From: Botryllus schlosseri | Lineage: Eukaryota | DNA: 64,000 bases | Reading direction: 5' to 3' | NCBI GenBank assembly: GCA_051294905.1 | Contig: CM119372.1 | Span: 19,594,001-19,658,000, forward strand | Shown: one piece after another, positions 11,464 to 57,995 of the stretch | Layout: the number at the start of each line of letters is the position of its first letter | How positions within the stretch are numbered: the first letter of the stretch is position 1 | Notes under the pieces: generated by a model | What the model saw: the letters and a program-made list of their open reading frames with translations, nothing else | Told to the model about the DNA's origin: nothing | Database searches by the model: none | Made by a program: the position numbers and the translations under genes

Positions 11464-14400
11464 ATGTCTGACAAAGAAGATTCTCGACGCTCAGATTACT
11501 CTGACAATTCCGAGGCCGAGGAAAACGATGAAGCACCAGCTCCGAAAGTTGATTCGGAGTACGCAACCAAGATGGTTCAAGATCACGGAAAACGGTTTGA
11601 TTTCCTCCTGCAGCAAACCGAGATTTTCGCTCATTTCATGAACCCAAACATAAAAACCAAATCCCCCACCAGTCCCTTGAAGATGAAAGGAAGACCGAGA
11701 TTGGTTTCCAAGGAGTCGGCACCCGGAACATCTGGCGCAAGTGCCACGGACCATCGCCATCGCAGGACTGAACAAGAAGAAGACGAAGAGCTCCTTTCTG
11801 ATGCGCGTAAATCTCAGGGGGCTATTACACGGTTTGAAGCTTCACCAAAATATATTCAAAATGGAGAAATGCGAGATTATCAAGTTCGCGGTTTAAATTG
11901 GATGATATCCTTGTACGAGAACGGCATTAGCGGGATATTGGCTGATGAAATGGGCTTGGGAAAAACTCTCCAAACTATTTCGCTGTTGGGGTACTTGAAA
12001 CATTACAGAAACATCCCCGGCCCGCACATGGTCATCGTTCCCAAGTCAACACTGCAAAATTGGGTCAATGAATTCGAGCGATGGTGTCCGTCGATTAAAA
12101 CCGTATGTCTGACCGGTAATAAAGACCAAAGAAGCGCTATAATTCGTGATGTCATGATGCCCGGGGATTGGGACGTGTGTATCACCTCGTACGAAATAGT
12201 CATTCGAGAAAAGGCCTGCTTCAAGAAGTTCAACTGGCGGTATGTTGTCATTGACGAAGCGCATCGAATCAAAAACGAACAGTCCAAATTGTCCGTAATT
12301 GTGAGACAATTCCGCAGCACCAACCGCCTTCTACTGACTGGAACTCCGTTGCAAAATAACTTGCACGAGCTGTGGGCGCTTTTGAATTTCCTTCTGCCAG
12401 ACGTATTCAACTCGTCTGAAGATTTCGACTCTTGGTTCAGCGCGAACAAACTTGACGATCAAAAGCTTGTGTCCAGGCTGCATTCTGTGTTGCGGCCGTT
12501 TCTTTTGAGAAGGCTCAAAAGCGATGTTGAAAAGAGTCTCTTGCCCAAGAAAGAGACGAAAATCTACATCGGCTTGAGCAAGATGCAACGCGAATGGTAC
12601 ACCAAGATTCTAGTGAAAGACATTGACGTTATCAACGCTGCCGGTAAAAAAGACAGAGTCCGTCTCCTCAACATTTTGATGCAGCTGCGAAAATGCACCA
12701 ATCACCCGTACTTATTCGACGGGGCTGAACCTGGTCCTCCGTACACCACGGACGTGCATCTGGTGGTGAACAGCGGTAAAATGGCTGTCCTCGATAAATT
12801 ACTTCCAAAACTGCAAGCGCAAGGAGACCGCGTGCTGATGTTCAGTCAAATGACCAGGATGCTGGATATACTTGAGGACTACGCCATGTTTCGTGGATAC
12901 AATTACTGCAGACTGGATGGTCAGACTGCGCACGTCGACCGAGATCGGCAGATACAAGAATTCAACAAGCCAGGCAGTGAAAAATTTCTGTTCATGCTCT
13001 CCACGAGAGCTGGCGGTCTCGGGATCAACTTGGCTACGGCCAATATTGTCATCCTGTTTGACAGCGATTGGAACCCGCAAGTCGACCTGCAAGCTATGGA
13101 CCGCGCGCATCGTATCGGTCAGAAAAAACAAGTCATGGTGTTCAGGTTCATCACCGAGAATACGGTGGAAGAGAGGATTGTGGAGAGGGCGGAAATGAAA
13201 TTGCATCTTGACAATATCGTCATCCAACAAGGCCGGCTTGTGAATCAGACTCAGAAGCTGGGCAAGGATGAAATGTTGAATATGATTCGGCACGGTGCGA
13301 ATCATGTGTTCGCCTCGAAAGAAAGTGAAATAACTGATGCTGACATCGACGCTATTATCGCGGTTGGCGAAAAACGCACCGTCGAAATGGAGGAGCGTTT
13401 AAAAAATCTGGGTGAGAGCGGGTTGAGAAAATTCACCCTCGACGACACCGAAGGCCCGTACTCGGTGTACAATTTTGAGGGCAAGGATTGGAAAGACAAG
13501 AACAAGGAAGGAGGGTTGCTGCCGTGGATCGAACCTCCCAAGAGAGAGCGCAAAGCCAACTATGCGGTGGACCAATATTTCCGCGAGGCTCTCAGAACCA
13601 GCGAGCCCAAAGCACCGAAAGCGCCACGACCGCCAAAGCAACCTACCGTCCAAGACTTTCAGTTCTTTCCGCCTCGTCTTTTCGAACTCTTGGAAGCCGA
13701 GATTCTGCATTACAGAGCATCGATCGGGTATAAAGTGCCTCGAGATAGCGATGGCGACCCGGAAGCCGAAAAAGAACAGCAGCGTTTGATCGACGAAGCA
13801 ACGCCGCTATCCGAAGATGAGCTTGCGGAGAAGGAGAAACTTTTGCAGTGTGGATTTACCAACTGGACCAAGCGTGATTTTAATCAGTTCATTCGTGCCA
13901 ATGAAAAGTACGGTCGCGATGATATCGAGAGCATATCCAAAGAGGTGGAAGGGAAGACGCCTCAAGAAGTGATCGAGTATTCTGCGGTGTTTTGGGACCG
14001 CTGCAACGAACTGACCGACATTGACAAGATCATGGCGCAGATTGAACGCGGCGAAGCACGCATTCAGAGAAAGATTAGCGTGAAGAAAGCGCTGGACGCG
14101 AAAGTGGCGCGCTACCGTGCCCCTTTCCACCAGCTCCGGATACAGTACGGCACCAACAAGGGGAAAAACTACACAGAGGAAGAGGACAGGTTTCTGATTT
14201 GCATGTTGCACAAGCTCGGGTTGGACCGAGAGAATGTCTACGATGAGCTGCGTGTGGCCGTACGTCACGCGCCGCAGTTTCGCTTTGACTGGTTTATCAA
14301 GTCGAGGACGGCGACTGAATTACAGCGCCGTTGTAACACGTTGATCACGCTGATCGAGAGGGAGAACCAGGAATTGGAGGAAAGGGATAAGACATCGGGA

Positions 14401-14541
14401 GGAAAGAAAAGGGGGCCGCGGGGAGGTGGGACTCCGGCGGGATCGAGGGCGTCGACGCCGTCTTCGCTAGGGGGGAGTTCGCAGAAGAGGAAGATGGACA
14501 CATCTGGCGCGAGTGCCGGGAGGAAGAAGAAGAAGGATTGA
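11464..14541 (+). CDS. SMARCA5: ISWI-family chromatin-remodelling ATPase (SMARCA5/SMARCA1-like), intronless, 1025 aa
   Basis: One open frame from ATG 11464 (the track ORF starts at an upstream TTG). SNF2 motifs [28 protein letters not shown] and [24 protein letters not shown] region ([51 protein letters not shown]); basic C-terminus. Confidence 0.97.
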
Positions 14542-21800: not shown

Positions 21801-24800
21801 GTAACTTCCTGCGTGATGCCGTCGTCTCATGAATATTTCAAGCCTGCGCTTTCCGAGAAGCTTTCTACATCGTAATTGACCGAGAAAGTAGCGATATCCG
21901 ACAAATAATTCATGCGCTCACCTTGGTCTCTCTTGGCGATTTCCTTTTCGATGTTCTTAATCTCGTCTGCCAGCGAGCTCAATTTCCAGTTGAGGTGCTC
22001 GATGTCGCGTTTGCTACGGTTGGCCATGTTCCTGTTGTTTTCGTTGGCGCGCTGCTGCTTGATCCTCTGCAGATGGCTCTCTTCGCTTATGGCCTGTGAA
22101 AAAATCGCTTGTGATCAAACAGGGCCGGGTTTCTACCGCGGCTTCTCGCTTGATTTAACCTTGGCAAGGTCCTCCATCTTGCGTTTGAATCCCGTAATGT
22201 CGCCGGTGGATCTGTCGATTTCAGCTCGGAGCCCGTTTAGTTCTTGATGAGCCTGGTTAGCTGATGAAAGAATATGGTTTTGACTAAAGCCATGATCTGA
22301 TCAGCAATTTTCGGTATGTCACAGCGTGGTTGTAGAGAGTCGGAGTGCAATAATCTTCGACTGCTAGACTGGGGATGTCGATACATTTCTTATTACTTAC
22401 AGGTGTCCAGATACATTCGTTCTAATGTATTTTATGTCCAAGCATAGTAATGGCTGTAAACCTGTTCAAGTGTTCAAACATATGACCTTAAGTTTTTGAA
22501 ATGTGCCTTAAGCTAGATGCCATATATTTTGTATATTGGCTTGATATGGGATATCGGCGAAGGTGCTAGTTGTCGCCTCAAAAATCCGATATCGGTGGGG
22601 CTGCAGTTTTGGTGCACCCCCTTTGCTAAATTTCATGAGGGTTGCGTAAACGAGAAACAATGATCAAGTAGACGCGCAATAATCACCTTTACTTTCCTCA
22701 GCGGACAATTCTTCCGTAACCCCGTATTCTCTGGCGTACTGACTTTCCAACAGACGGTTCTGCTCCTCCAATTTTGCGATTTCCGCCTGAAGAAGCACAT
22801 AACAACAACACTAGTCATGCGCGCCAGATAACAATTTCAATTCACATTACACAAGACCAATGCTTGTGACATAATACAGTACCAAACTACTCGATCGTAT
22901 GACATAGCCTATACGCAGACAAGTCAGTAACAAAGTACTTCTACTTTTTCAGAGTAGTCCTACTCTTGATGGTAGATTTTGCCTACTAACTTTAAAAACG
23001 ATTATGTGTTGAAACAACTTTCACTTCTACTTAACAGATTCTAGGCAAGATTACATTTTTCATCTTTGCAATTTCTAAAGTGGCCACATCGGATCAACCA
23101 CAAAAAGTACACGACACATCGAGCAAATCTATAATGAAACTAATTACTCCAGTACCATAAGATCTCCATTTTCTATTTTAATTTCATGTACTTTTGACAT
23201 GTCTTGTAAGTTTCTACTTCAACTCATAATTAAATAAAAATTTATGGGTTATTTCCACTTTTACTTGAGTAGCAATGCTGAATACTTAGACCACCTCTGG
23301 ACACTCAGTCCGTACCGACATCTCAAGCAACCATTCTTTCAAATCTCGCATCCTAACCTCGACATCCCGTTCTCTCTTCTGCATCACGTCGAGTATATTC
23401 TGAATATTGTTGTCCGCGTCCCTCAGCGTCTCCCTCTGCTCTTCCACGTGCCTCTGCTGCTCGCGGACCAGCCTAGAAAACTCCTCCCTGGCTTTCACGT
23501 CTCCTGCCAAGTTAATCGGCGCCGGAGTGTACGGCACCCGATACAGCTGCGGGTTCGGCGTCATGGACCGGGCCTTGTGCCCGGGCGGCACCAGCGGGGC
23601 TTTTTTCGTGACGTCACGCGGGTGACGTCGGCCGTCGTCCACCGACGCTGAGGCGGTGTCGGCCCACGACTTTTTACGCGACCGGGGCAGCGAGTTGCCA
23701 TGACGATAGGCGTGCCGGCCACCGTCGTTGGACGAAAAGTGATTGGGCGTCGCAGCACCGGCGGTGGAATTTCTGTTCATTTCCGATGTAGCCGGGCTTG
23801 AGCCGTTACCCGAGCTTCTGCTCTGGAGTATTTTATGCGCAGGGGGCATGAGAGGTACTTTCCCCCCACTTTTAGAGTTGACGTTTTTGATATGATCGTT
23901 TTTTCGCGTCGGCGATTTAGCCACGACGTCGCTCTTACTCTCAGTTGGAAACAAAGCTTCCGTAGCAGAGCTTACGCTACTCCCAGGCCTTTGCATGCTC
24001 GGAGGCATGAGAGCCACTTTAGGCCTTAGTTCCTCTTTCGCTTTTTTGTCAGGCTTGCCCTTCGATCTCTTGTCTTTACTTTTGGCGCCCTTACTGCTGG
24101 TGCCGGGCTCATCGTGGGAAATGTTGGCGCTGAACCGTTGAGCCGCTTTGCGGACATTGGCTGGCACCGACCCAGACGAAGTCCGGTCATATCTCGCCGC
24201 GACCTCATCTTGCACTCTGTTGTTGTTGCCGTTGCTATTTTGATGCTTGCCTGGAACGACACAAGTGAATAGTATAGTCACATGGAGATAAAACCTCAGT
24301 ATTTTCGGCTGAGACTGGTCAGAGGTAGGCTAATCGTCAGCGAGAAGTAGAGAATTGAAAAGAACATTGTATATGAATATTAAAAGTCGCCTATGCAACT
24401 TGGGTGGAAAGGTCTGGTTGACAAATCCGTAATCCGTTCGTGTACCTTTCGTGTCGTCGGTCTGTTTCGGATTGTTTCCGCCGGCTGTGATCGTCAGTGA
24501 TTTACGTTTCGTCTCTTTGCGTTTCAGATTTTGAAGCATTTCGTTCTTTTTGGCAAGAGGAGGTAAACTTTGTCTGAAACGTAACAATTAATGTCTTATT
24601 TACAAGTTACGAGGTAACCGTTGCCTTAATGTAACAATAAACATCATATTTACAGCATGAGCGCAAACACTCTCCAATACAGTAGATCGTGCAAACAATA
24701 TAGAACAGAAATTTTGCACTATGCATAGAGAACTGAACAGGATAGCTGATGTTGGAGGTAGTTTTCTACCTGATATTGAAATATCTGTAGTCTTAAGAAA

Positions 24801-36227: not shown

Positions 36228-36663
36228 CATTAGGGTTCGGGGAGTGGGACATTAGGGTTGCCGGAGGTGGGATATTAGGGTTGCCGGGGTTAGATATTAG
36301 GGTTGCCGGAGGTGGGATATTAGGGTTGCCGGGGTGGGATATTAGGGTTGCCGGGGGTGGGATATTAGGGTTGCCGGGGAGTGGGATATTAGGGTTGCCG
36401 GGGGTGGGATATTAGGGTTGCCGGGGGTGGGATATTAGGGTTGCCGGGGGTGGGATATTAGGGTTGCCGGGGGTGGGATATTAGGGTTGCCGGGGGTGGG
36501 ATATTAGGGTTGCCGGGGAGTGGGATATTAGGGTTGCCGGGGGTGGGATATTAGGGTTGCCGGGGGTGGGATATTAGGGTTGCCGGGGTGGGATATCAGG
36601 GTTGCCGGGGGTGGGATATTAGGGTTGCCGGAGGTGGGATATTAGGGTTGCCGGTGGTGGGAT
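36228..36663 (+). repeat. 23-bp G-rich minisatellite containing TTAGGG, left part
   Basis: Unit GGGGGTGGGATATTAGGGTTGCC, about 18 copies. Confidence 0.95.
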
Positions 36664-38866: not shown

Positions 38867-40113
38867 GCGGCGTGTAGACAGCCGGCTAAAAGAAGAGTGC
38901 TTGGTAGTCCTATAGCTGGCGTCCCGTCAGCTAAAATTTAATCAAACAGGTCTCAATCGAAAGCTAGTGTCGCACTGACTCCGAAAACACGAATTAATAT
39001 GGTAACATGGCGAAGGAATCACTCCGAAATAGCCGTCACGGCCGATTGTTCGGAGAGTTCGCAGAAAAAGGAGAATGTCTGGCGAACAAACAGAAGATGC
39101 TGGCCTCAGTGTTGTTGAAGAATTTAGACGATGCATGTTTCAAGCATAGGACAGATTTAAACTTGAAGCTGAAACTAGGTTTACCGGCATTCACCACTTA
39201 AATGATATATTTGGATTTTTGAATTCCCACGCGCTGCTGCAAAGCGAAAGTCACAATTTATTCACCAGCGCTTTTAGAAGCACTTATGACGACGAGGTGG
39301 ACTTTTTGGCGTTAGCTGCGAAAATTGTCATGCGTTATACCTCGAATTAGGGATCATATAAAGCAGAAGATTGCTAGCTTTTCGTACAAACCAATATGAG
39401 GCCTCCTAGGACAGGGGTTCTCAACCTAGGGGCGCGCCCCCGTTGGGGGGCGTGAAAGCATCTTAAGGGGGCGCGAAGAATCGGTCAAATGATTTTTTTT
39501 TTCGCGAACACAAATTAAGTTATAATCAAATGAAGTTGTTCAACTTGAGATTTTAAAAGGGTTAAGAGGCTGGTGCGGAGCAGTGAAACCACGTTTGATC
39601 GTAGTGCAACAACGTTTGATGTTTTACAGTGGTTGTTCAATGCAAAGCTACTTGATTCGACACCGTATTTATGCTCGTGTCTGAAACTTTATCTGAACAT
39701 TGGTGTTTCAACTGCGAGCTGTGTGAGGAGCTTCTCAAAGCTCAAACTGATTAAGTCTTATATATTTAGTTCTATCATGAATAATGATCGGCTATCAGCT
39801 CCGTCCATTCTGTCTATAGAAAGAGACTATACGTTCAAAAACTTGAATTTGAGGATATTATCGCTGCTTTTGCTTTGAGGCGGCCATTAATTTTCTATTT
39901 GTATAATACGTTCGTTCGCTATTTCTTGTTTTTATTATTTTTGGCGTCATTAACGTCGAGACGGTAAGGCTGAGAAGCGGCATATTATTTGTAATTATTC
40001 CTATTGACAAGATTACTTGAACATCAATCTATGTCGAAATTTGATGCGGTCCACCTAGGGGGGCGGCATTTTCAAGAGAGCCAGGGGCGGCAGCACATGC
40101 TGCTACGCCAGTG

Positions 40114-40222
40114 GGTGGGATATTAGGGTTGCCGGGGGGGGGGGGGATATTAGGGTTGCCGGGGGTGGGATATTAGGGTTGCCGGAGGTGGGATATTAGG
40201 GTTGCCGGGGTGGGATATTAGG
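40114..40222 (+). repeat. 23-bp minisatellite, right part
   Basis: The same unit resumes immediately after the hAT element (about 4.5 copies). Confidence 0.95.
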
Positions 40223-40509
40223 CCACATGCTGCAAAGCTGCGGCATCAAACTCCAAGTGCCGAGTTCCCTGGCAAACAATCATGGTGAACCGGTAGCATG
40301 CGTGGTAGATTCTTCGATATCAGGCTCTCGCACTGGGAGATCTACCACGGCACGTGATTGTTCCCTACCTGAGAATCATATCACATTTAATGCATTTTTA
40401 ATTCAAAATTGTTCGAGGGCCGCATTCACCGAGGTCCAGAGTACTCGAAAAACGCCATGAATACCACAAGTAGACCACGCGTGCTTGATATACAAAATTT
40501 CGAGTTCGT

Positions 40510-40588
40510 CGAGGGCCGGGCTCTCCAAGGGCCGGGTTCTCCGAGGGCCGAGTTGGTAGGGCCGGGTTCTCCAAGGGCCGGGTTCTCT
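40510..40588. repeat. Short 14-16-bp tandem repeat (AGGGCCGGGTTCTCC-like) x5
   Basis: Seen directly; possibly the subterminal repeat of a DNA transposon. Confidence 0.75.
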
Positions 40589-41101
40589 GGTAATCTTTGA
40601 AACGATGAAAATAAAAATAAACCTGATTGATTGATTGATGGTTCTATGTTCTGTATGAAATTGGAATCCGGTGGCTTCAGTACACCACAATTGAAAAAAT
40701 ACTTAATAACAAACTTAAATGCATTGGCAAATGTAATTAGAAAAATATTGATGACATGGGCAACAACCTACGGAGGTTAGTTATCTATAGTCTGTACCTC
40801 TCTGCTAGACATCCCTGTCGTTTTGTGATGAACAAATATCCGGTTCCGCGGGTTTGTCTTTTCTATTCCAATCACCGCGATACGGATAATGAATGATTAC
40901 TGAGCTGATCTTTCATGTCGTTTGTCTTCCGCACGGTCGATATCAATAGTCACCATCACGATTGGCTGCCAGACTGCCTTGCCTGAGCAATTGTGGTACC
41001 GGTAGGTTTTTTGTCAAAATATATATAATTTATTGTGACAAGTCGAGTGATTTTTCACTGCCGTATCGATTTATCCCACCCGCCAGGCCGCCATCACCAA
41101 T

Positions 41102-41300
41102 ATGTTGAGTGAAGATCATTTTGCCAAAAGCAGTTCCCTTCTCTCCGAGCTGAACTCAGACATTCGGCTTCTCAAAGAAGAAATACGATCCGCATTCGCT
41201 AAGCATAAAAATTACATGACGTCTCGAGAGAACTATCTTCTTGATCAAGTAGATAGCATAAAAGAAGCAACCACGTCAATGGTAATGAAGCAACAAATGA
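41102..41300 (+). CDS. NCOA4: NCOA4/ARA70-like gene, 5' part (codons 1-66), interrupted by the foldback element
   Basis: EIRSAFAKHKNYMTSRENYLLDQVDSI resembles the ARA70-domain motif (recalled human QIHSCISRHLECLRSREVWLYEQVDLI). It joins 47204 in frame once the element and one TSD copy are removed. Confidence 0.75.
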
Positions 41301-41515
41301 ACCAAAGGGAAGTCAGCCACGAAATTTCCAGCCACGAAATCGCAAATTCGCAACTAAAGCATCCCAGCAGAAATATCACATGAGTCGAACATATCGCAGG
41401 ATCAAACGTTCAGGCCAAGCCACATGCAGAAGCCACGAAATCCCACCATTTTTCTAAACATCTATCCACTGCAAAATAACAACCCTATTCAGTAGTTTTC
41501 AGCCCTGGGCCCAAA

Positions 41516-43135
41516 TCGTACGTTGGGACAGTGTCCAAAATGCACCCTATCTGACCAGCCCCAACTTCCTCGAAACTGAAATTTAGTGTGAAACCCTTTC
41601 TGAAAACCCCGAAATCGTTTCGCTCCGACAGTTATGACCCTATACGGGTGGCCTCAAGTAACCTAGTCACCAACCTAGAAATTTTCAACAATATCGTACG
41701 TTGGGACAGTGTCCAAAATGCACCCTATCTGACCAGCCCCAACTTCCTCGAAACTGAAATTTAGTGTGAAACCCTTTCTGAAAACCCCGAAATCGTTTCG
41801 CTCCGACAGTTATGACCCTATACGGGTGGCCTCAAGTACCCTAGTCACCCACCTAGAAATTTTCAACAATATTGTACGTTGGGACAGTGTCCAAAATGCA
41901 CCCTATCTGACCAGCCCCAACTTCCTCGAAACTGAAATTTAGTGTGAAACCCTTTCTGAAAACCCCGAAATCGTTTCGCTCCGACAGTTATGACCCTATA
42001 CGGGTGGCCTCAAGTACCCTAGTCACCCACCTAGAAATTTTCAACAATATTGTACGTTGGGACAGTGTCCAAAATGCACCCTATCTGACCAGCCCCAATT
42101 TCTTCAAAACTGAAATTTAGTGTGAAACCCTTTCTGAAAACCCCGAAATCGTTTCGCTCCGACAGTTATGACCCTATACGGGTGGCCTCTAGTATTCTAG
42201 TCACCCACCAAGAAATTTTCAACAATATCGTACGTAGGGACAGTGTCCAAAATGCACCTTATCTGACCAGCCCCAATTTCTTCAAAACTGAAATTTAGTG
42301 TGAAACCCTTTCTGAAAACCCCGAAATCGTTTCGCTCCGACAGTTATGACCCTATACGGGTGGCCTCTAGTATTCTAGTCACCCACCAAGAAATTTTCAA
42401 CAATATCGTACGTAGGGACAGTGTCCAAAATGCACCCTATCTGACCAGCCCCAACTTCCTCGAAACTGAAATTTAGTGTGAAACCCTTTCTGAAAACCCC
42501 GAAATCGTTTCGCTCCGACAGTTATGACCCTATACGGGGGGCCTCAAGTAACCTAGTCACCAACCTAGAAATTTTCAACAATATCGTACGTTGGGACAGT
42601 GTCCAAAATGCACCCTATTTGACCAGCCCCAACTTCCTCGAAACTGAAATTTAGTGTGAAACCCTTTCTGAAAACCCCGAAATCGTTTCGCTCCGACAGT
42701 TATGACCCTATACGGGTGGCCTCAAGTACCCTAGTCACCCACCTAGAAATTTTCAACAATATCGTACGTAGGGACAGTGTCCAAAATGCACCCTATCTGA
42801 CCAGCCCCAACTTCCTCGAAACTGAAATTTAGTGTGAAACCCTTTCTGAAAACCCCGAAATCGTTTCGCTCCGACAGTTATGACCCTATACGGGTGGCCT
42901 CAAGTACCCTAGTCACCCACCTAGAAATTTTCAACAATATTGTACGTTGGGACAGTGTCCAAAATGCACCCTATCTGACCAGCCCCAATTTCCTCGAAAC
43001 TGAAATTTAGTGTGAAACCCTTTCTGAAAACCCCGAAATCGTTTCGCTCCGACAGTTATGACCCTATACGGGTGACCTCAAGTACCCTAGTCACCCACCT
43101 AGAAATTTTCAACAATATCGTACGTTGGGACAGTG
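41516..43135 (+). repeat. 178-bp tandem array, left arm (9 units plus a partial)
   Basis: The motif T(T/A)GGGACAGTG recurs at 41523, 41701, 41879 ... 43125 with a period of 178. Confidence 0.95.
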
Positions 43136-43947
43136 CCCGTTCTTATCGTGTTAATTTACAAAACATTTCCAGCCTCATAATCTGGTAAAACTCATTATGA
43201 AACAGTTCGTACATTCGGTCGCAATGCTTTTCAACCTTAAGCAGATAAAATTTTGCTCTACGTTTTCTGATGAAGTTTCGTCGTCGCGATCTATTAATAA
43301 AAATATGTCGGACTTCGTCACCCCACGAAATTATTTTTTGAGTTTGAATTTTGAGTTGTTCGGAACAATCGGTCTTGACGGCTAGTTCGGAGTGGTTCCA
43401 TTGTTAAGCTCACATTTTAATTTGTGTTTTCATCATCATCATCATTGGTATATTGGCAATTTTATCAGTTCAATACACCAGTGCGATGCTAACTTCTGAT
43501 TAACACCAGTTGAATAAATTTGAGCTCTCTGGTCGCCAACTAAAAGACTACCATTTATACGCTGCTTTTAGCCGGCTGTTGTGTGCACTGTGCAGCCTCA
43601 TTTTGCCACCACCAAGTCGCTGCTACGCCACTGACCTTCACTATCACGTATTTCACCCAGGGGCGAATACACCATTTCTCCTCCAGAGTTGGGCTACACT
43701 ACATCCTCTCCTCCTAATTGTCATAGGGCCTACTGACTAAGTCTTGGCACTGACTACGACGTTGGATCTTGAAAAGAAGCTCGATACCTATATGCTTTTC
43801 TATTAATCGTCCTTAATTGCCTGTGAAACCCCAATTTAACGTAGGCGAAACCTGACTTTGCTTTAAATTTTATTCGTCAACAATAAAAACATAAGGTTGC
43901 AATGCGATAAAATTGAACAAACGTTGCAATCGGTTGCTCTGCTGAGA

Positions 43948-44178
43948 TAGGGTTACCATATTTTGGAAATCTGAAAAGAGGACACTTTTTCAAACAAGGT
44001 TAACTTTCCGGCCATCAGCTTCCGAAATAGCCGCCGGATCGTTACTTCAGTGCTTACTTACTATATTTCAGTCGAATTTTACCCTATATTTAACCAAAAA
44101 AAAGAGGACATTTGAGCGTCCTTCGAGGACACTTTCAAAAAAGTCAAAAAGTAGTACAAATCCTCTTGGGTAACCCTA
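43948..44178. mobile_element. hAT (Blackjack-like) MITE inside the foldback centre
   Basis: TIR TAGGGTTACC/GGTAACCCTA; perfect 8-bp TSD TGCTGAGA; AAGAGGACA subterminal motifs. Confidence 0.85.
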
Positions 44179-44236
44179 TGCTGAGAGAGCGCAACAGTGG
44201 CGCCACGGGAAGGCTTGCAACTTTGCCACCAAAAAT

Positions 44237-44348
44237 TAGCCCTGAAAAGGGCTGTTAGTGAAAAGGTAGCCCTGAAAAGGGCTGTTTATGAAAATGTAGC
44301 CCTGAAAAGGGCTGTTTGTGACAAGGTAGCCCTGAAAAGGGCTGTTTT
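44237..44348. repeat. 30-bp tandem repeat x4 with an internal palindrome
   Basis: TAGCCCTGAAAAGGGCTGTT followed by a variable 10 nt, four copies. Confidence 0.9.
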
Positions 44349-45664
44349 ACGACCGCCGCGCTGGGAGCTTTCGTACCAGTCGGCTATCAGATTACCAACC
44401 ACTTCACGCTGGATATTCATGGGCGATCCACTCTAGCAATCTATTGTAGACTTCCCAGCGGCCCCCGGTCAGTGAACGAAACCAAATTTCTGTCAAATGC
44501 GAGGGAAACAACGCAGGGTCTATAGTTCAGCTTATTAACAATTTCATTAAATCAATACAAAGCAGGATTGCGATATATTTTTAAAAAAAAACAGTACACC
44601 AATTAATGGCTATATAGCATATATGTCTTACGATTTCGTCCGCGAGATGTGCATGTGCATCCCACGTGCGGATGAATAATGATAATATGCCATTTTGAAC
44701 AGAGAGAGAGAGAGAGAGAGTCTTTATTTTGAACAAGCCAGCTGGACTTCATGAAAACGATATCCAAGTAGGGGCATCCTGATGAACTCCCATGTACGTG
44801 GCATCCAGATGACTGACTACCATGACATCCTCTGGAATATTCATTGGTGACGGGAATAGGAAGATTCTAAAAATTTCTTCCACTGGAAGTCACCTGGAGT
44901 TACATAACTGGACGTCCAATTTGTGACAAACTGAGCAAGTCCTCAGTAACTAACCTTGGGAGGTGGGACGAGTTGGAACAATTGTGGACATACCAGTAAA
45001 TCCATGGGATATCGGGTGTTTGCTGGGATAGTTATTGTGTAATGTGGTAGACTTTTGTGTTTGTGACTCACTGAAAATTAGCGAAGGCTTGTGGATTAGT
45101 GTACTCACTTTTTGATATCTGTAACTAAAACAAGAACTAGGCCTACTCCAATTTGCAAAATCAACAACTGGAACTAGAATTACAACTACTCAATTTTCAA
45201 AATCAGCAACTAGAACTAGAAGGTTCTTGGATGTGGGAGCGAAACAATTTCGGGGTTTTAAGAATGTAAACATGGAATGGCAACGACCGATTTTGCAGCC
45301 CTCCAAGTCTGAAACATCGGCATTGTCCGCACAATCGGAGACCCACAACGGGTCGTTGTTATGGTCATCGTTTTGCGATTATCCGATTGTTCTGAACAAT
45401 GCGCATTTCGAATGTTCAAAGCGATTTTTCGTCTAAGTCTAGTACCTGACCATATTTCAATTTATATTTTTGGAATCAGTGCAACAGTAGCTTTCGATCA
45501 AGACCAGACTCAGTAAATCCTGTGCTTGGAAGATAACTTTTGGATTGCCAGAAATCCTACAGTCGCTTACGCAAAACAATTCTGAAATACAGCCTCAGCG
45601 AAGCGGAACGAAGCTTCAAAATCGGTCGCTGCCATTCCATGTTTACATTCTATAGTTTTACGCT

Positions 45665-46980
45665 CAATTTCAGTTTTGTGGAAATTGGGGCTGGTCAGAT
45701 AGGGTGCATTTTGGACACTGTCCCAACGTACGATATTGTTGAAAATTTCTAGGTGGGTGACTAGGGTACTTGAGGTCACCCGTATAGGGTCATAACTGTC
45801 GGAGCGAAACGATTTCGGGGTTTTCAGAAAGGGTTTCACACTAAATTTCAGTTTCGAGGAAATTGGGGCTGGTCAGATAGGGTGCATTTTGGACACTGTC
45901 CCAACGTACAATATTGTTGAAAATTTCTAGGTGGGTGACTAGGGTACTTGAGGCCACCCGTATAGGGTCATAACTGTCGGAGCGAAACGATTTCGGGGTT
46001 TTCAGAAAGGGTTTCACACTAAATTTCAGTTTCGAGGAAGTTGGGGCTGGTCAGATAGGGTGCATTTTGGACACTGTCCCAACGTACAATATTGTTGAAA
46101 TTTTCTAGGTGGGTGACTAGGGTACTTGAGGCCACCCGTATAGGGTCATAACTGTCGGAGCGAAACGATTTCGGGGTTTTCAGAAAGGGTTTCACACTAA
46201 ATTTCAGTTTCGAGGAAGTTGGGGCTGGTCAGATAGGGTGCATTTTGGACACTGTCCCAACGTACGATATTGTTGAAAATTTCTAGGTTGGTGACTAGGT
46301 TACTTGAAGCCCCCCGTATAGGGTCATAACTGTCGGAGCGAAACGATTTCGGGGTTTTCAGAAAGGGTTTCACACTAAATTTCAGTTTCGAGGAAGTTGG
46401 GGCTGGTCAGATAGGGTGCATTTTGGACACTGTCCCTACGTACGATATTGTTGAAAATTTCTAGGTGGGTGACTAGGGTACTTGAGGCCACCCGTATAGG
46501 GTCATAACTGTCGGAGCGAAACGATTTCGGGGTTTTCAGAAAGGGTTTCACACTAAATTTCAGTTTCGAGGAAGTTGGGGCTGGTCAGATAGGGTGCATT
46601 TTGGACACTGTCCCAACGTACAATATTGTTGAAATTTTCTAGGTGGGTGACTAGGGTACTTGAGGCCACCCGTATAGGGTCATAACTGTCGGAGCGAAAC
46701 GATTTCGGGGTTTTCAGAAAGGGTTTCACACTAAATTTCAGTTTCGAGGAAGTTGGGGCTGGTCAGATAGGGTGCATTTTGGACACTGTCCCAACGTACA
46801 ATATTGTTGAAATTTTCTAGGTGGGTGACTAGGGTACTTGAGGCCACCCGTATAGGGTCATAACTGTCGGAGCGAAACGATTTCGGGGTTTTCAGAAAGG
46901 GTTTCACACTAAATTTCAGTTTCGAGGAAGTTGGTGCTGGTCAGATAGGGTGCATTTTGGACACTGTCCCAACGTACGAT
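45665..46980 (-). repeat. 178-bp tandem array, right arm (7 units plus a partial), inverted relative to the left arm
   Basis: The reverse-complement motif CACTGTCCC(A/T)A recurs with a period of 178 from about 45726 to 46972. Confidence 0.95.
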
Positions 46981-47199
46981 TTGGGCCCAGGGCTGAAAAC
47001 TACTGAATAGGGTTGTTATTTTGCAGTGGATAGATGTTTAGAAAAATGGTGGGATTTCGTGGCTTCTGCATGTGGCTTGGCCTGAACGTTTGATCCTGCG
47101 ATATGTTCGACTCATGTGATATTTCTGCTGGGATGCTTTAGTTGCGAATTTGAGATTTCGTGGCTGGAAATTTCGTGGCTGACTTCCCTTTGGTAACAA

Positions 47200-48627
47200 A
47201 TGACACTGGCGGAAGTAAAAGCTAGATTAGCCGAATGCAGTGCACACCTCAAGCAGTCGAAAGAACAGAAGGAGGACACAGGAATGCAACGCGCTCTCAC
47301 GGTAATAGCGGATCTGAAAATCAAAGCTGAAAAGTCTGACCTGACTACACGTACAGCTTTGTCTAAGGTAAAATTTGTGCATGATAGCAATAAATTAAAG
47401 AGAAACATTCTGTCCTATGGAAAACTTGAAACCTGCATTGATGCGAATGCTGAACATTCGTGGGATGTCGTTGAAGACAAAGATTGTGAATCGTATGTAT
47501 CTTACGAAGCATCAAGTGATTGCACAAAGCTGTGTTGCAAAAGCTCGAACGAAATCGAAGACATGGATTTTTTCTGTATTCATAGCGGCGAGGAATTTGA
47601 TGCGGAAGAGATAGATTTGAGTCAAGTGTGCAAGGCCAATGAATTATGCACTGCCGTTAGTGAGTGTGTGTGTGACATCCCGTGTGTCACTAATGGAACC
47701 AAAGCACAAACTACCGGGCTGAAAAACGCTGAAAAATATCACAAGAGAACTGCCTCACCATCAAAAACACCCGATGATTGCTTTGATATGCTCGAAAGTG
47801 AGGGTAACGACCCTTTACTTGAAATAAGGAAAGCTGTTAATGACATACTTTCACCGTCAAATACCATAGCATTTACCACTGCTAGTGCAAAAAATGCCGA
47901 GACCAATGAAACTGTTATGGATGGCTTGACCTTCAAATTACAAAGTATCCTGGATGGCAAAGATGTAATCGATAAATTCCCTGAATCAGTCGAATCGGAG
48001 AAGCTTGCTGAATCTGTGGAAGACGACAAAGTTAAGCCATGTGATGTGAGCCCCGTTAATTTAGCCCCGATTGAATGCTTGCATAACAAGATTCAAGGAA
48101 TTTTGGATGGAGCCATTGACACTGTCACTATGTGTGATAGTTCTATGGAAGTGGATGACAAGGAGAAATGTACTGTACAAGACCCTGTAAGGTCAACTGA
48201 TGGTAAATCTGAGAATATGCCAAGTTTCATCTCAGATCTAGCCTGTAAACTGCAAGGGATCTTCGACGGTACAATTCAACCGAAAACTGAAATTGATGAT
48301 ACAGGTCATGATACGTTCATGGATTTCAAGCAACAATCTATTGGTAGTGACCTACCCCATTCGAATGAAACCGAAAAATTTGCCGATATTGGTAGTCTTC
48401 ATCGTAAGCTACAGGATATTATCAGCATTGGCCTCCCAGAAGAGGTAAAAGTTGATCCTGTACCAGCAATGGTCAAGGATACTCTTGTCTCAGATCTACA
48501 TTCACGTCTCGTTGAAATCCTCGAGACTGAAGCTCCTCCAATGACTACTGAATCTGGTCGCATGATCATGGATCCTGATCCAATATCGGTTATCTCCAAT
48601 CAGATGCGGAGTCTTCTTTCAGACTAA
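47200..48627 (+). CDS. NCOA4: NCOA4/ARA70-like gene, 3' part (475 aa); the pre-insertion allele would be a 540-aa intronless ORF
   Basis: FVHDSNKLKRNILSYGKLET resembles the end of the ARA70 domain. The Cys cluster VCKANELCTAVSECVCDIPC matches recalled human [20 protein letters not shown]. The acidic tail carries a repeated amphipathic motif. Confidence 0.8.
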   Translation: MTLAEVKARLAECSAHLKQSKEQKEDTGMQRALTVIADLKIKAEKSDLTTRTALSKVKFVHDSNKLKRNILSYGKLETCIDANAEHSWDVVEDKDCESYVSYEASSDCTKLCCKSSNEIEDMDFFCIHSGEEFDAEEIDLSQVCKANELCTAVSECVCDIPCVTNGTKAQTTGLKNAEKYHKRTASPSKTPDDCFDMLESEGNDPLLEIRKAVNDILSPSNTIAFTTASAKNAETNETVMDGLTFKLQSILDGKDVIDKFPESVESEKLAESVEDDKVKPCDVSPVNLAPIECLHNKIQGILDGAIDTVTMCDSSMEVDDKEKCTVQDPVRSTDGKSENMPSFISDLACKLQGIFDGTIQPKTEIDDTGHDTFMDFKQQSIGSDLPHSNETEKFADIGSLHRKLQDIISIGLPEEVKVDPVPAMVKDTLVSDLHSRLVEILETEAPPMTTESGRMIMDPDPISVISNQMRSLLSD

Positions 48628-51030
48628 CTTTTATCACTTTTCATGGATTTTCATGCACATTGTAACATATCATGTACAGGTAAAGGTGAATTTTATGTGT
48701 AATCTTCTGAACATTGTAATATTTGTTGTATTATTTTTCTGTGATCTTGGCCAGACAATTGTATAGATAGTACGGGTATACGGTAGTGTAGGCCTATCAT
48801 TTGACTGACTTTTTATGCACACATGTACAGTAATAAATCTGATACCGTTGCCGGTGGTTTTACACCCGTTACATATGTGTTCTACATTAACTCCGTTATT
48901 TGCTAGAAATTTGATACAAAACGAATCTAGCGATAGTTGCCATATGCATTGGTTCGGTTCTATGTTTAAAATTACCTCTGGTAACTTCAAAATATTGCAT
49001 GGTACAAGTTTGTGCTATCGACCATAATAACTACATATCGAATAATTACTACCCGAATCGTCTATACATTGATGTTTCCATCTTGTTTGATTGTGCTCTT
49101 GTAAATCTGTACAAGTAATGTTGTGAATGGTATGCTATGAAATCTTTAATCCATGCAGATAGGAACTCTCTGCTATGAAATCTTGTTGGATCGCTTCCAA
49201 CGATATATTTTGCGCATTGGATGACTGTTTGATCTATAGTCCTGTGCATTGATGATTATGTATGGATTACTTGTAGCTGTTCGTTGACAAATCTGGAATG
49301 CCGTATAGGAATTTTTCAACCAGCCTTTAAGATTAGCCTACTGTGTGATGAGATTGCATGTGCCTTTATGCTTGTGATCATTTCATTTTTGATATACGTT
49401 GTCTCTGAGAAACAATCTCATTTCATGCTGGACCGTGTAATACAATATTGTAAATAATTTTCTTGCTTATGCGCAGCGTTTCTGTATCAAATATGCTGGT
49501 GTAAGTGTGTGGCAGAGCAGGATTTAAGTGGAATTTTTTGTGCATGGATAAAAATATTGGGCTAGTGAGCCGAGTGGAAAGGACAAATGATGCCCGATGT
49601 GATGACAAGTTTGGAAATGAAGTGCCCGAATCTTGCAGTGTGGAAGGGTAAGCGTTTTATAATGTATGGAAATTATGGTATCACAGGACTGAGAAAATCT
49701 TCAATTAATCCAATGTGGTCCAATGTCCGATGCTTCGTTTGTATTTGGATACTCTATTTAGGAAAACTTTTCATGGGTATAGAAGAAGGCAGTTACAGAT
49801 TCATTAAGCTTCTGTAAATATTACGATTTCACAGCTCTTTGCGATACAAATAATGCAGTACTTTGAACATCTACGTTGCATTTGACAAATGTTGTACTGG
49901 GAATAGTCTTCCTGTTTTGACATTGTTAGCGGTGTTTAGTTATAGAGTATTGATGCAGTCCCCACCTATATCAGTGACAGCCATGCATTTGCTACTGTAT
50001 TATAATATATTATTGTGCACCTATAGTTCTTTAGATTGTGGAATAACAGATTTAAGTCTTATTTCTGGGTTACAAATTACTTTGATCACTCCCTAGACAA
50101 TTTTACCGATGTCTCAAAAGTAAATGCATCCCAATATGGTAGAACTATGTTCCTTAGCTGCCTAATTTGTGTATCCGCCATGGCTTGTTTAATTGAATTG
50201 AAAATTTGTACACTCTAATAGACTCACTCACGGCAAAGAATCTGTCGTTGGAAGGAAGAGAGATCTTGAAAACAGTTCTCTGGTAGGTTGAGCTCAATAG
50301 CAGCCTATATTTATAGATTGCTGAGTCTATGCAAGTCTGACTGTGGTTTTCGTATATAATATGGGCTAATATGTGGCAACTGTAGTCAGAGGCCTTAGTT
50401 TGAAAAAATATTTCTTGAATCAATCATAAGCATCAAACTAGTATACAATCGCTTGTTCTTTAAAAATAATACAGTTCTCCTGGAATGCTGAATTGCTGAA
50501 TACTTTTTAGGAAAGTTTTTATGTTGCTGAAAGAAGCTCTCTAAACCCCAAGAGATGTAGGAAAGATGAACCAAGCCATGTAATCGCATGTGGTAAGATC
50601 AATTTGAGAATATTTGCGTTTAAATTTCGTGATGTTTTCCTGATGCGAGCGCGTTAATCAACTCTAACTTAATATATTCTAGTTTGTTTTCCATGAAATT
50701 TTGTGTTACATGACCCTGCATTAACTTGACCCTCTTGTTGGTAGGCCTACAGGAAAAGCGGTCAAGATGTTGTCATTCAAAGTCACACTCGATCAAAATA
50801 AGTGACAGTCTGGCACCTCGTGTTGTATATGGATCTGACCCTGAATGATCTTTGTGATCTGCATTAAGAGGTAGAAATAAAAATTTTGAAAAGTTATGCT
50901 ACGCAGGCATACTCCTCCATTCCTATATTCAAAGTTATTACCGTTTCCGCTTGGCATAATAGCCTATTAAACTGTGATCTTTCAAAAATAGTTTTTTGTG
51001 AAAAGATGTCTCCATTCGATCCTTTAAAAT

Positions 51031-51672
51031 ATGTTGAACATGCGCTTAAAAGTTGTCCTAGAACGTTGTGCAAAGTGCCTCCACATGCTCTCTATGTCGC
51101 TAACTTATCTTTTTGCAACAGGAAGGGAAATAAAATTTCGTAGAAGTAATCGGAAGGAGGAAACCACACCTTTATCGCAATATGATATCAAAAGTCAAAT
51201 ACCAGTGAAGCGCACTTTATCATCCGAGAACCAATGGAACATTCCAAAATGCAGCAAAATTGATTCCTCGTCAACCGGAAAAGACGGTCAGCATGCTACC
51301 ATACCATACAAAAGTTTGAAATTGGAAGGAAAGGATGTTAAAGGCGAAGTTTCACCCTCTAGGATTGCAAAGCAACAGCATCTACAGGCCAGTGAGCGAC
51401 GTGAGGCATCCTTGGCAGTTGAATACTCAGAGATTTCCAAACATGTTGGTGATGTGATTGATATGCTGGAACATAAAATGAAACGGATATTTCACAATGA
51501 TCCATCTTTTGAACGCGATGAAAAAGCTACTTCCTATTCTTATACTGAAGAGACAGTGCCCTGTCAATCCCTTGTTAAACTGCCTGAGATTAATGACATG
51601 ATTGTATCTCGCCAATGTGCTGACCCAATATTAGGGCTCTCTAATCGAATTAGGGAAATTTTATTGCAATGA
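51031..51672 (+). CDS. 213-aa ORF sharing the repeated motif of the NCOA4-like tail (partial paralog or alternative terminal exon)
   Basis: Long ORF in AT-rich DNA. VIDMLEHKMKRIF and the terminal DPILGLSNRIREILLQ* parallel the NCOA4-like repeats and its terminal DPISVISNQMRSLLSD*. A strong acceptor (TCTTTTTGCAACAG) ends at 51121. Confidence 0.5.
   Translation: MLNMRLKVVLERCAKCLHMLSMSLTYLFATGREIKFRRSNRKEETTPLSQYDIKSQIPVKRTLSSENQWNIPKCSKIDSSSTGKDGQHATIPYKSLKLEGKDVKGEVSPSRIAKQQHLQASERREASLAVEYSEISKHVGDVIDMLEHKMKRIFHNDPSFERDEKATSYSYTEETVPCQSLVKLPEINDMIVSRQCADPILGLSNRIREILLQ

Positions 51673-51929: not shown

Positions 51930-57995
<6,066 letters not shown>

What the first reader, a model, noticed from the sequence alone, without database searches (positions are those of the whole stretch)
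41292..47203. A 5.9-kb foldback element with 178-bp satellite arms splits an NCOA4-like coding sequence
Seen: the 9-bp TSD AACAAATGA flanks a 5,894-bp element with inverted arms of about 1.8 and 1.5 kb. Deleting the element and one TSD copy gives ...ATG AAG CAA CAA ATG ACA CTG GCG... (MKQQMTLAEVK) and a clean 540-aa ORF with no other stop or frameshift. I saw one mismatch between the outer inverted repeats, so the insertion looks very recent. Established: 9-bp TSDs and modular tandem-repeat arms characterise Foldback/Mutator-type elements, and NCOA4 is the ferritinophagy cargo receptor. Inference: this is an active, possibly undescribed family and a natural disrupted allele, perhaps heterozygous.
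Basis: partly seen in the sequence, partly recalled or inferred. Interest (0 to 1): 0.85.

Follow-up and report, generated by a model that had tools for sequence, protein, structure and literature searches.

The report
Foldback transposon breaks sea-squirt NCOA4 allele
A 5.9-kb gene-less jumping element with mirror-image, repeat-filled arms sits inside the coding sequence of a sea squirt's NCOA4-family gene and would cut its protein short, while uninterrupted copies of the gene occur in the same species, so this is likely a young mutation on one chromosome copy caused by an already known kind of transposon.

Summary
Observation confirmed. A 5,894-bp element (41301-47194) with an exact 9-bp target duplication has 214-bp outer modules and inverted arrays of 9.1 and 7.4 units of 178 bp. 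Removing it restores a 540-codon ORF, and ascidian orthologues span both halves as one protein. The protein is NCOA4-family (ARA70-like start, four Fe-S cysteines), but none of 7 tunicate sequences has a Trp-Leu/Ile motif after the cysteines, so the ferritinophagy role is not shown. The 2.5-kb middle has no transposase trace and holds nested small elements. Sequencing runs show the empty site in two samples, one of which also carries a window-identical haplotype. The left junction is inferred indirectly and no contig showed the right junction. Heterozygosity is likely, not proven. Arm identity does not date a DNA transposon; the polymorphism is the better argument for youth. The anatomy matches Tetris, Rehavkus and Tm1. 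The scan had already noted similar foldback and Rehavkus-like elements, and gene insertions by them, elsewhere in this genome (unchecked by me). Verdict: new member of a known kind, modest interest.

The parts
41102..41300 (+). 5' part of the NCOA4-family ORF (66 codons + 1 nt; ARA70-like)
   Evidence: Pfam ARA70 E=0.017, below its cut-off; 53-54% identity to ascidian orthologues
41292..41300 (+). Left 9-bp target-site duplication
41301..41514 (+). Left outer module of the inverted repeat (214 bp; an 11-bp motif occurs 3 times); the host frame runs 27 codons into it and stops at 41381-41383
41515..43138 (+). Left tandem array, 9.1 units of 178 bp; units 4 and 5 are a diverged variant with no partner in the right arm
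43139..45654 (.). Non-coding middle: patchwork of repeats also found elsewhere in the window; no transposase trace
43948..44178 (.). Nested 231-bp MITE with 10-bp inverted ends and an exact 8-bp TSD (43940-43947 / 44179-44186); hAT-like by TSD length and ends (label recalled)
44231..44347 (.). 30-bp minisatellite, 3.7 copies
45221..45260 (-). Decayed inner remnant of the 178-bp unit (82% over 44 nt)
45261..45651 (.). Nested 391-bp element with 39-bp inverted ends (95%) interrupting the decayed inner unit of the right arm; no clean TSD
45655..46980 (-). Right tandem array, 7.4 units of 178 bp, inverted
46981..47194 (-). Right outer module of the inverted repeat (214 bp)
47195..47203 (+). Right 9-bp target-site duplication
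47204..48627 (+). 3' part of the ORF, no intron or stop; holds the C-x5-C-x5-C-x-C-x3-C motif at 47629-47685 and short helical LxxKLQxI-type repeats

Best explanation
A transposase-less foldback DNA transposon with a 9-bp target duplication sits after codon 66 of an uninterrupted ascidian NCOA4-family reading frame; it was likely moved here in trans by a Mutator/Rehavkus-type transposase encoded elsewhere, is likely present on only one of the two chromosome copies, and would leave a 93-residue stub without the predicted iron-sulfur motif. Shown: structure, TSD, split ORF, no coding trace inside, and the empty allele in two samples. Inferred: (1) a transposase binds the outer modules and subterminal repeats, cuts at both ends and inserts with a 9-bp stagger; (2) the element is an old, insert-laden derivative whose arms are kept alike by copying between them; (3) this landing is young and segregates against intact alleles; (4) the allele is a null, masked by the intact copy.
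For: TSD, arms and ORF. Orthologues cover both halves contiguously. NCOA4 family: profile A1 hits the NCOA4 chain of PDB 9L93 (E=1.4e-5); 14 of 19 profile hits scanned carry Pfam ARA70 above cut-off; 4 of the 10 looked up sit in clusters named NCOA4-like. No transposase: 0 relevant Pfam hits in 20 of 39 listed ORFs or in all 6 frames read through stops. Empty junction in runs X1 and X4 (sample S1) and X5 (sample S2) (tables 7-8). S1 holds window-identical contigs (0 differences) beside a second haplotype (table 8). In X4 the empty-site contig starts exactly 21+9 = 30 letters before the end of the TSD, where a 31-mer graph would fork if the left junction also existed. The X4 consensus of 3 loose ends behind 47194 fits a mix that includes the reverse left flank (compared by eye). 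Arm units correspond in order (L9=R7, L3=R3, L6 vs R4 1 difference), which argues for real structure. Other flanks behind the same terminus show further copies. 9-bp TSD plus long TIRs with subterminal tandem repeats are described for Rehavkus, Tm1, Tetris and Muta1.
Against: No laid contig spans the right junction: the depth of bin 47188-47254 in X1 and X4 is fully explained without one (my arithmetic). The X1 contig runs unbroken across the empty site. The left-junction evidence is indirect. Long reads were not available. No autonomous partner was tied to these ends: no genome was held and sequence look-ups in earlier findings found 0 look-alikes. Transcripts of the inserted allele were not examined. 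32 of 290 GT-AG pairs tested could give an open frame (the 25 printed lose 13-83 residues and have weak sites), so partial rescue by splicing is unlikely but not excluded.
Confidence: 0.8

Rival explanations
1. The insertion is real but somatic or mosaic in the sequenced animal or colony, not an inherited heterozygous allele.
For: Junction contigs are weak or absent: X1 shows an unbroken 839-letter contig over the empty site and neither S1 run shows the right junction.
Against: The assembly carries the insertion on a haplotype that occurs at about half depth in S1. The empty-site contigs differ from the window at 3-4 nearby positions, as expected if they come from the other haplotype, although merged contigs blur phase. 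The tool notes that contigs drop rare variants, and short links to repeats are often pruned (recalled).
Confidence: 0.08
2. Same structure, but mobilised by a non-Mutator transposase (for example a P/Galileo-type), since foldback anatomy arose several times.
For: Tm1 paper: foldback elements are not all related, and Galileo carries a P transposase. No transposase is present here to classify.
Against: Galileo has 7-bp TSDs. The 9-bp TSD here matches MULE (8-11 bp) and Rehavkus (9 bp).
Confidence: 0.06
3. Assembly artefact: a repeat-rich element was wrongly joined into the gene, or a fold-back chimeric read was assembled.
For: Right junction not seen in contigs; no long reads examined.
Against: A mis-join would not be expected to create an exact 9-bp direct duplication of host sequence at both termini. 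The middle 2.5 kb is not mirrored and the arms differ in unit number and variants, unlike a fold-back chimera. There are indirect signs of the left junction in X4.
Confidence: 0.04
4. Two separate satellite-bearing elements landed head to head and bracket captured host DNA, rather than one element moving as a unit.
For: The middle is a patchwork of genomic repeats with no transposase relic.
Against: There is one TSD around the whole 5.9 kb and the host ORF is continuous across it. Heterogeneous middles are normal in non-autonomous Muta1 and Tetris copies.
Confidence: 0.02

Closest known systems
Tetris foldback transposon of Drosophila virilis (PMC4079207; passages read)
   Same: Long TIRs (up to 1,735 bp) built from an outer flanking domain plus ~220-bp tandem repeats; non-coding variable middle; 8-10-bp TSD; no transposase found
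   Different: Host, unit length (178 bp) and outer module (214 bp vs up to 866 bp); no sequence comparison was possible
Rehavkus elements, MULE or sister group (PMC6446971 and bioRxiv 10.1101/2024.12.02.626372; passages read)
   Same: 9-bp TSD; long inverted termini holding 2-50 tandem satellite units that evolve with the element
   Different: Defined by a DDE transposase with a PHD finger, which is absent from this copy; the 2019 paper lists arthropod and annelid hosts
Tm1 (root-knot nematodes, PMC3169594) and Muta1 (Aedes aegypti, PMC5225508); passages read
   Same: Composite TIRs with internal repeats, 8-9-bp TSD, non-autonomous copies with heterogeneous middles and nested elements; Muta1 excises precisely when the TSD is present
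   Different: Their subterminal repeats are short (12 bp in Muta1), not 178-bp satellite units; autonomous partners are known there
Human NCOA4 (PMC12318192, PMC11076521; passages read)
   Same: ARA70-like N-terminus; cysteine spacing identical to C404/C410/C416/C418/C422, four of which hold the [2Fe-2S] cluster in the HERC2-binding domain
   Different: No Trp after the cysteine motif in the window protein, whereas human ferritin binding uses F486/I489/W497; the C-terminal half has LxxKLQxI-type repeats instead
Ciona intestinalis foldback element (Simmen and Bird 2000; recalled, not found, not read)
   Same: As recalled: modular inverted repeats with a tandem array and a non-coding middle in an ascidian
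   Different: As recalled it is smaller; sequence relation untested

Membership tests
Foldback-type elements (structural class) | Long terminal inverted repeats | tested here: met
   1,838 and 1,540 bp, 97%
Foldback-type elements (structural class) | Modular TIR: outer domain plus tandem repeats, variable in number between arms | tested here: met
   214-bp module; 9.1 vs 7.4 units
Foldback-type elements (structural class) | Target-site duplication and an empty site elsewhere | tested here: met
Foldback-type elements (structural class) | Dispersed multiple copies | tested here: inconclusive
   Other flanks behind the terminus and higher depth on the outer module in X1, X4 and X24; no whole sibling copy was read; 0 further termini in the window
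MULE/Mutator superfamily | TSD of 8-11 bp | tested here: met
   9 bp; range from PMC6446971
MULE/Mutator superfamily | Mutator DDE transposase in this copy | tested here: not met
   No Pfam transposase hit in ORFs or six read-through frames; expected for a non-autonomous copy, so the superfamily is inferred, not filed
Rehavkus | 9-bp TSD with subterminal tandem repeats in long TIRs | tested here: met
Rehavkus | Partner with the same ends encoding a PHD-DDE transposase, or similarity to Repbase Rehavkus entries | not testable with these tools
P superfamily / Galileo | 7-bp TSD | tested here: not met
   7-bp test fails, 9-bp passes; Galileo 7 bp
NCOA4 | N-terminal ARA70 domain | tested here: inconclusive
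   Direct Pfam E=0.017, below cut-off; none in P0001-P0003; but the ascidian profile retrieves ARA70 proteins, several through this region
NCOA4 | Four-cysteine Fe-S / HERC2-binding motif | tested here: met
   Match to 9L93 chain C, E=1.4e-5; motif in 7 of 7 tunicate and 7 of 8 other proteins
NCOA4 | Ferritin-binding segment with Trp (human F486/I489/W497) | tested here: not met
   0 W-L/I motifs after the cysteine motif in 7 of 7 tunicate sequences, against 3-8 in 7 of 7 non-tunicate proteins that have the motif; a sequence test only, binding untested

The most novel reading that the evidence does not exclude
Tunicate NCOA4 has kept the iron-sulfur sensor but lost the ferritin-grabbing tryptophan motifs and replaced them with its own helical repeats, so it may capture a different cargo or bind ferritin in a new way. 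A currently mobile, low-copy satellite-armed Mutator-type family has supplied a ready-made natural null allele for testing this, and its ends may also fire transcripts outward into neighbouring exons.
Probability: 0.2. Interest if true: 0.55.

Novelty: new member of a known kind. Interest (0 to 1): 0.3.

Why it matters
It is a clean example of a satellite-armed foldback transposon disrupting a gene in a chordate, and a usable natural mutant if the allele can be bred to homozygosity. It adds a case for the link between transposon arms and satellite DNA. It does not change what is known about foldback elements. The more open point is a by-product: the tunicate NCOA4 proteins seem to lack the known ferritin-binding motif.

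Tried and rejected
The whole genome was not held, so copy counts, sibling TSDs and a partner transposase could not be searched. Metagenome contig scans with a terminal and a satellite pattern: 0 hits each; uninformative. Earlier-finding look-ups by sequence (terminus, middle) and by nearby place: nothing. Rfam on 40000-49500: 0 matches. The 178-bp unit folds no better than shuffles (z=+1.0). Pfam on the middle: only chance-level hits, best E=0.011; no captured gene was recognised. No RNA holder on record was listed. RNA run X24 covers the 3' ORF thinly and not the junction, so it says nothing on the inserted allele. Allelic differences in the 3' ORF: 17 non-synonymous, 10 synonymous and 0 stops among the 27 coding rows of the 40 shown (42 rows not shown); inconclusive on selection. 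ESM Atlas hits (0.87-0.91, some clusters with ARA70 on 14-31% of members) are a lead only. Arm identity was rejected as a clock. Literature searches listed no paper on this element or on ascidian NCOA4; the library lacks most subscription journals and Repbase Reports, and no supplements were read. No structure or complex prediction was run.
Full report
Observation. The element runs from 41301 to 47194 (5,894 bp) between two copies of AACAAATGA. The duplication is exact at 9 bp only, and the 9-mer occurs 2 times in 63,992 window positions. The arms are 41301-43138 and 45655-47194, 97% complementary. Each has a 214-bp outer module (1 mismatch) and a 178-bp array of 9.1 or 7.4 units. Removing the element and one duplication gives a 540-aa ORF from ATG 41102 with no intron; with the element, the frame stops after 93 residues. 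The right end also puts a TAA in the host frame.

The host gene. A search with the first 170 residues of the 3' half found 3 proteins among 142 candidates, one named from Styela clava. All three, and their two cluster mates, align to both halves, which meet at the insertion point. The window is therefore most likely from an ascidian, and the halves are one gene. The profile of these proteins hits the NCOA4 peptide of PDB 9L93 (E=1.4e-5, the only PDB hit) and 28 proteins among 1.84 billion. Of 19 scanned, 14 carry Pfam ARA70 above cut-off; of 10 looked up, 4 are in clusters named NCOA4-like and 2 are unnamed Clavelina and Ciona proteins. The cysteine spacing equals human C404/410/416/418/422 (PMC12318192, passages). 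Against a simple transfer of function: ARA70 itself scores only E=0.017 on the 5' half and not at all on P0001-P0003. Human ferritin binding needs I489 and W497 (PMC11076521, passages), and none of 7 tunicate sequences has a W-L/I motif after the cysteines, against 3-8 in each of 7 non-tunicate proteins with the motif (an eighth, P0011, lacked the exact motif and was not counted). Whether the gene is single-copy in this genome could not be tested.

Inside the element. Units match between arms in order: L3=R3, L9=R7, and L6 and R4 differ at 1 site; L4 and L5 are a diverged pair (7-12 differences from the other units) without partners. That pattern fits arms copied from each other with gain or loss of units (inference). 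The middle has no Pfam transposase match in 20 of 39 listed ORFs or in six frames read through stops. It holds a 231-bp MITE with an exact 8-bp TSD, a 30-bp minisatellite, pieces of repeats found elsewhere in the window, and a 391-bp insert with 39-bp inverted ends that splits a decayed inner unit of the right arm. The element body is thus old even if this landing is young.

Is the insertion real and polymorphic? One search listed 24 runs of one organism, 20 holding part of the 3' ORF. I laid 4 of them on 46920-48900. The empty junction is present in X1 and X4 (one sample, S1) and X5 (S2). S1 has contigs identical to the window next to contigs with 5-8 differences at similar depth, so it holds the window haplotype and another; it may be the source of the assembly and is not independent support. 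The insertion junctions are less direct. The right one is in no laid contig: bin 47188-47254 is reproduced exactly from the empty-site contig plus 7 terminal bases (X1 14.1, X4 118.6; my arithmetic). For the left one there are two signs in X4. First, the empty-site contig starts 21+9 = 30 letters before the end of the duplication, the overlap expected at a fork in a 31-mer graph (k of the contigs recalled). Second, the consensus of 3 loose ends behind 47194 matches the X1 loose end at 17 of 30 letters and the reversed left flank at 15 of 30, including 7 of the 13 places where it departs from the X1 end and all 8 places where those two agree. By hand, chance is about 0.04 without assumptions and about 0.001 if ties are broken alphabetically, which I assumed. 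X1, at about 10-fold depth per haplotype, shows neither junction. Heterozygous is the best reading; mosaic and artefact remain small possibilities.

The family. Behind the same terminus lie other flanks in X1, X4 and X24, there is a terminal variant (47164, 47183), and more diverged ends break off at 47042 and 46965. In X4 the outer module has depth about 376-560 against 42-63 for one haplotype. The tool warns that this is no copy number; taken roughly it suggests a handful of near-identical copies, not hundreds. No sibling TSD could be read.

How it likely works. Shown: ends, duplication, lack of coding capacity, gene split. From the literature: MULE TSDs are 8-11 bp and Rehavkus 9 bp (PMC6446971, passages); Rehavkus arms hold satellite units (bioRxiv 2024.12.02.626372, passages); Tetris has the same outer-domain, tandem-array and non-coding-middle plan (PMC4079207, passages); non-autonomous Muta1 copies have heterogeneous middles and excise precisely when a TSD is present (PMC5225508, passages); foldback anatomy alone does not fix the superfamily (PMC3169594, passages). 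Inferred: a Mutator-type transposase acting in trans inserted it. Earlier scan notes describe Rehavkus-like transposase genes in this genome, unchecked by me and not linked by sequence. The allele is predicted null. Of 290 GT-AG pairs near the junctions, 32 keep an open frame; the 25 printed lose 13-83 residues and use weak sites.

On dating. One mismatch in the outer modules does not date the insertion, since TIRs are not regenerated at transposition (established knowledge) and Galileo copies show 98-100% identity between their TIRs (PMC3573991, passage). The perfect TSD, the absence of other lesions in 540 codons and the empty alleles point to a young event; no age can be given.

Verdict. 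Similar elements and similar gene insertions were already noted elsewhere in this genome by the scan. Whether this family is in Repbase or Dfam was not testable; seven literature searches (listings only) showed no description of it. Interest 0.3.

Noticed in passing
run X24 laid on window 47160-47194: 13 RNA reads carry a variant of the element's last 35 bases. 6 reads have a template-switch adapter (recognised from memory) just before 47160, and the flank behind 47194 reads like a splice acceptor followed by a P-loop-coding exon (AK6-like; recalled). A sibling end may drive outward transcription, or reverse transcription may stall at the hairpin; the reads could come from few molecules.
   Followed up: no
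window 47686-48624 and P0001-P0003, P0006-P0009: Tunicate NCOA4-family proteins have no W-L/I motifs after the cysteine motif, and most carry LxxKLQxI-type repeats instead (1-6 in six of seven, 0 in Ciona).
   Followed up: partly
window 11467-14541 (+): Uninterrupted 1,024-codon ISWI/SMARCA5-type ORF (SNF2, HAND, SLIDE); an intronless gene of this size is unusual in animals.
   Followed up: partly
window 54760-56394 (+): Long exon of a CDC5L-type gene (Pfam Myb_Cef), with a probable further exon near 56751-57149.
   Followed up: partly
window 36229-36663 and 40113-40222: Two arrays of the same 23-bp G-rich unit (19 and 4.7 copies), whose unit resembles hAT-type termini (label recalled).
   Followed up: no
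window 23286-24329 (-) and 51028-51672 (+): Open frames of 347 and 214 codons with no Pfam match.
   Followed up: no
window 47510-47512: A 3-base in-frame deletion separates the second haplotype of S1 and reads of X24 from the window.
   Followed up: no
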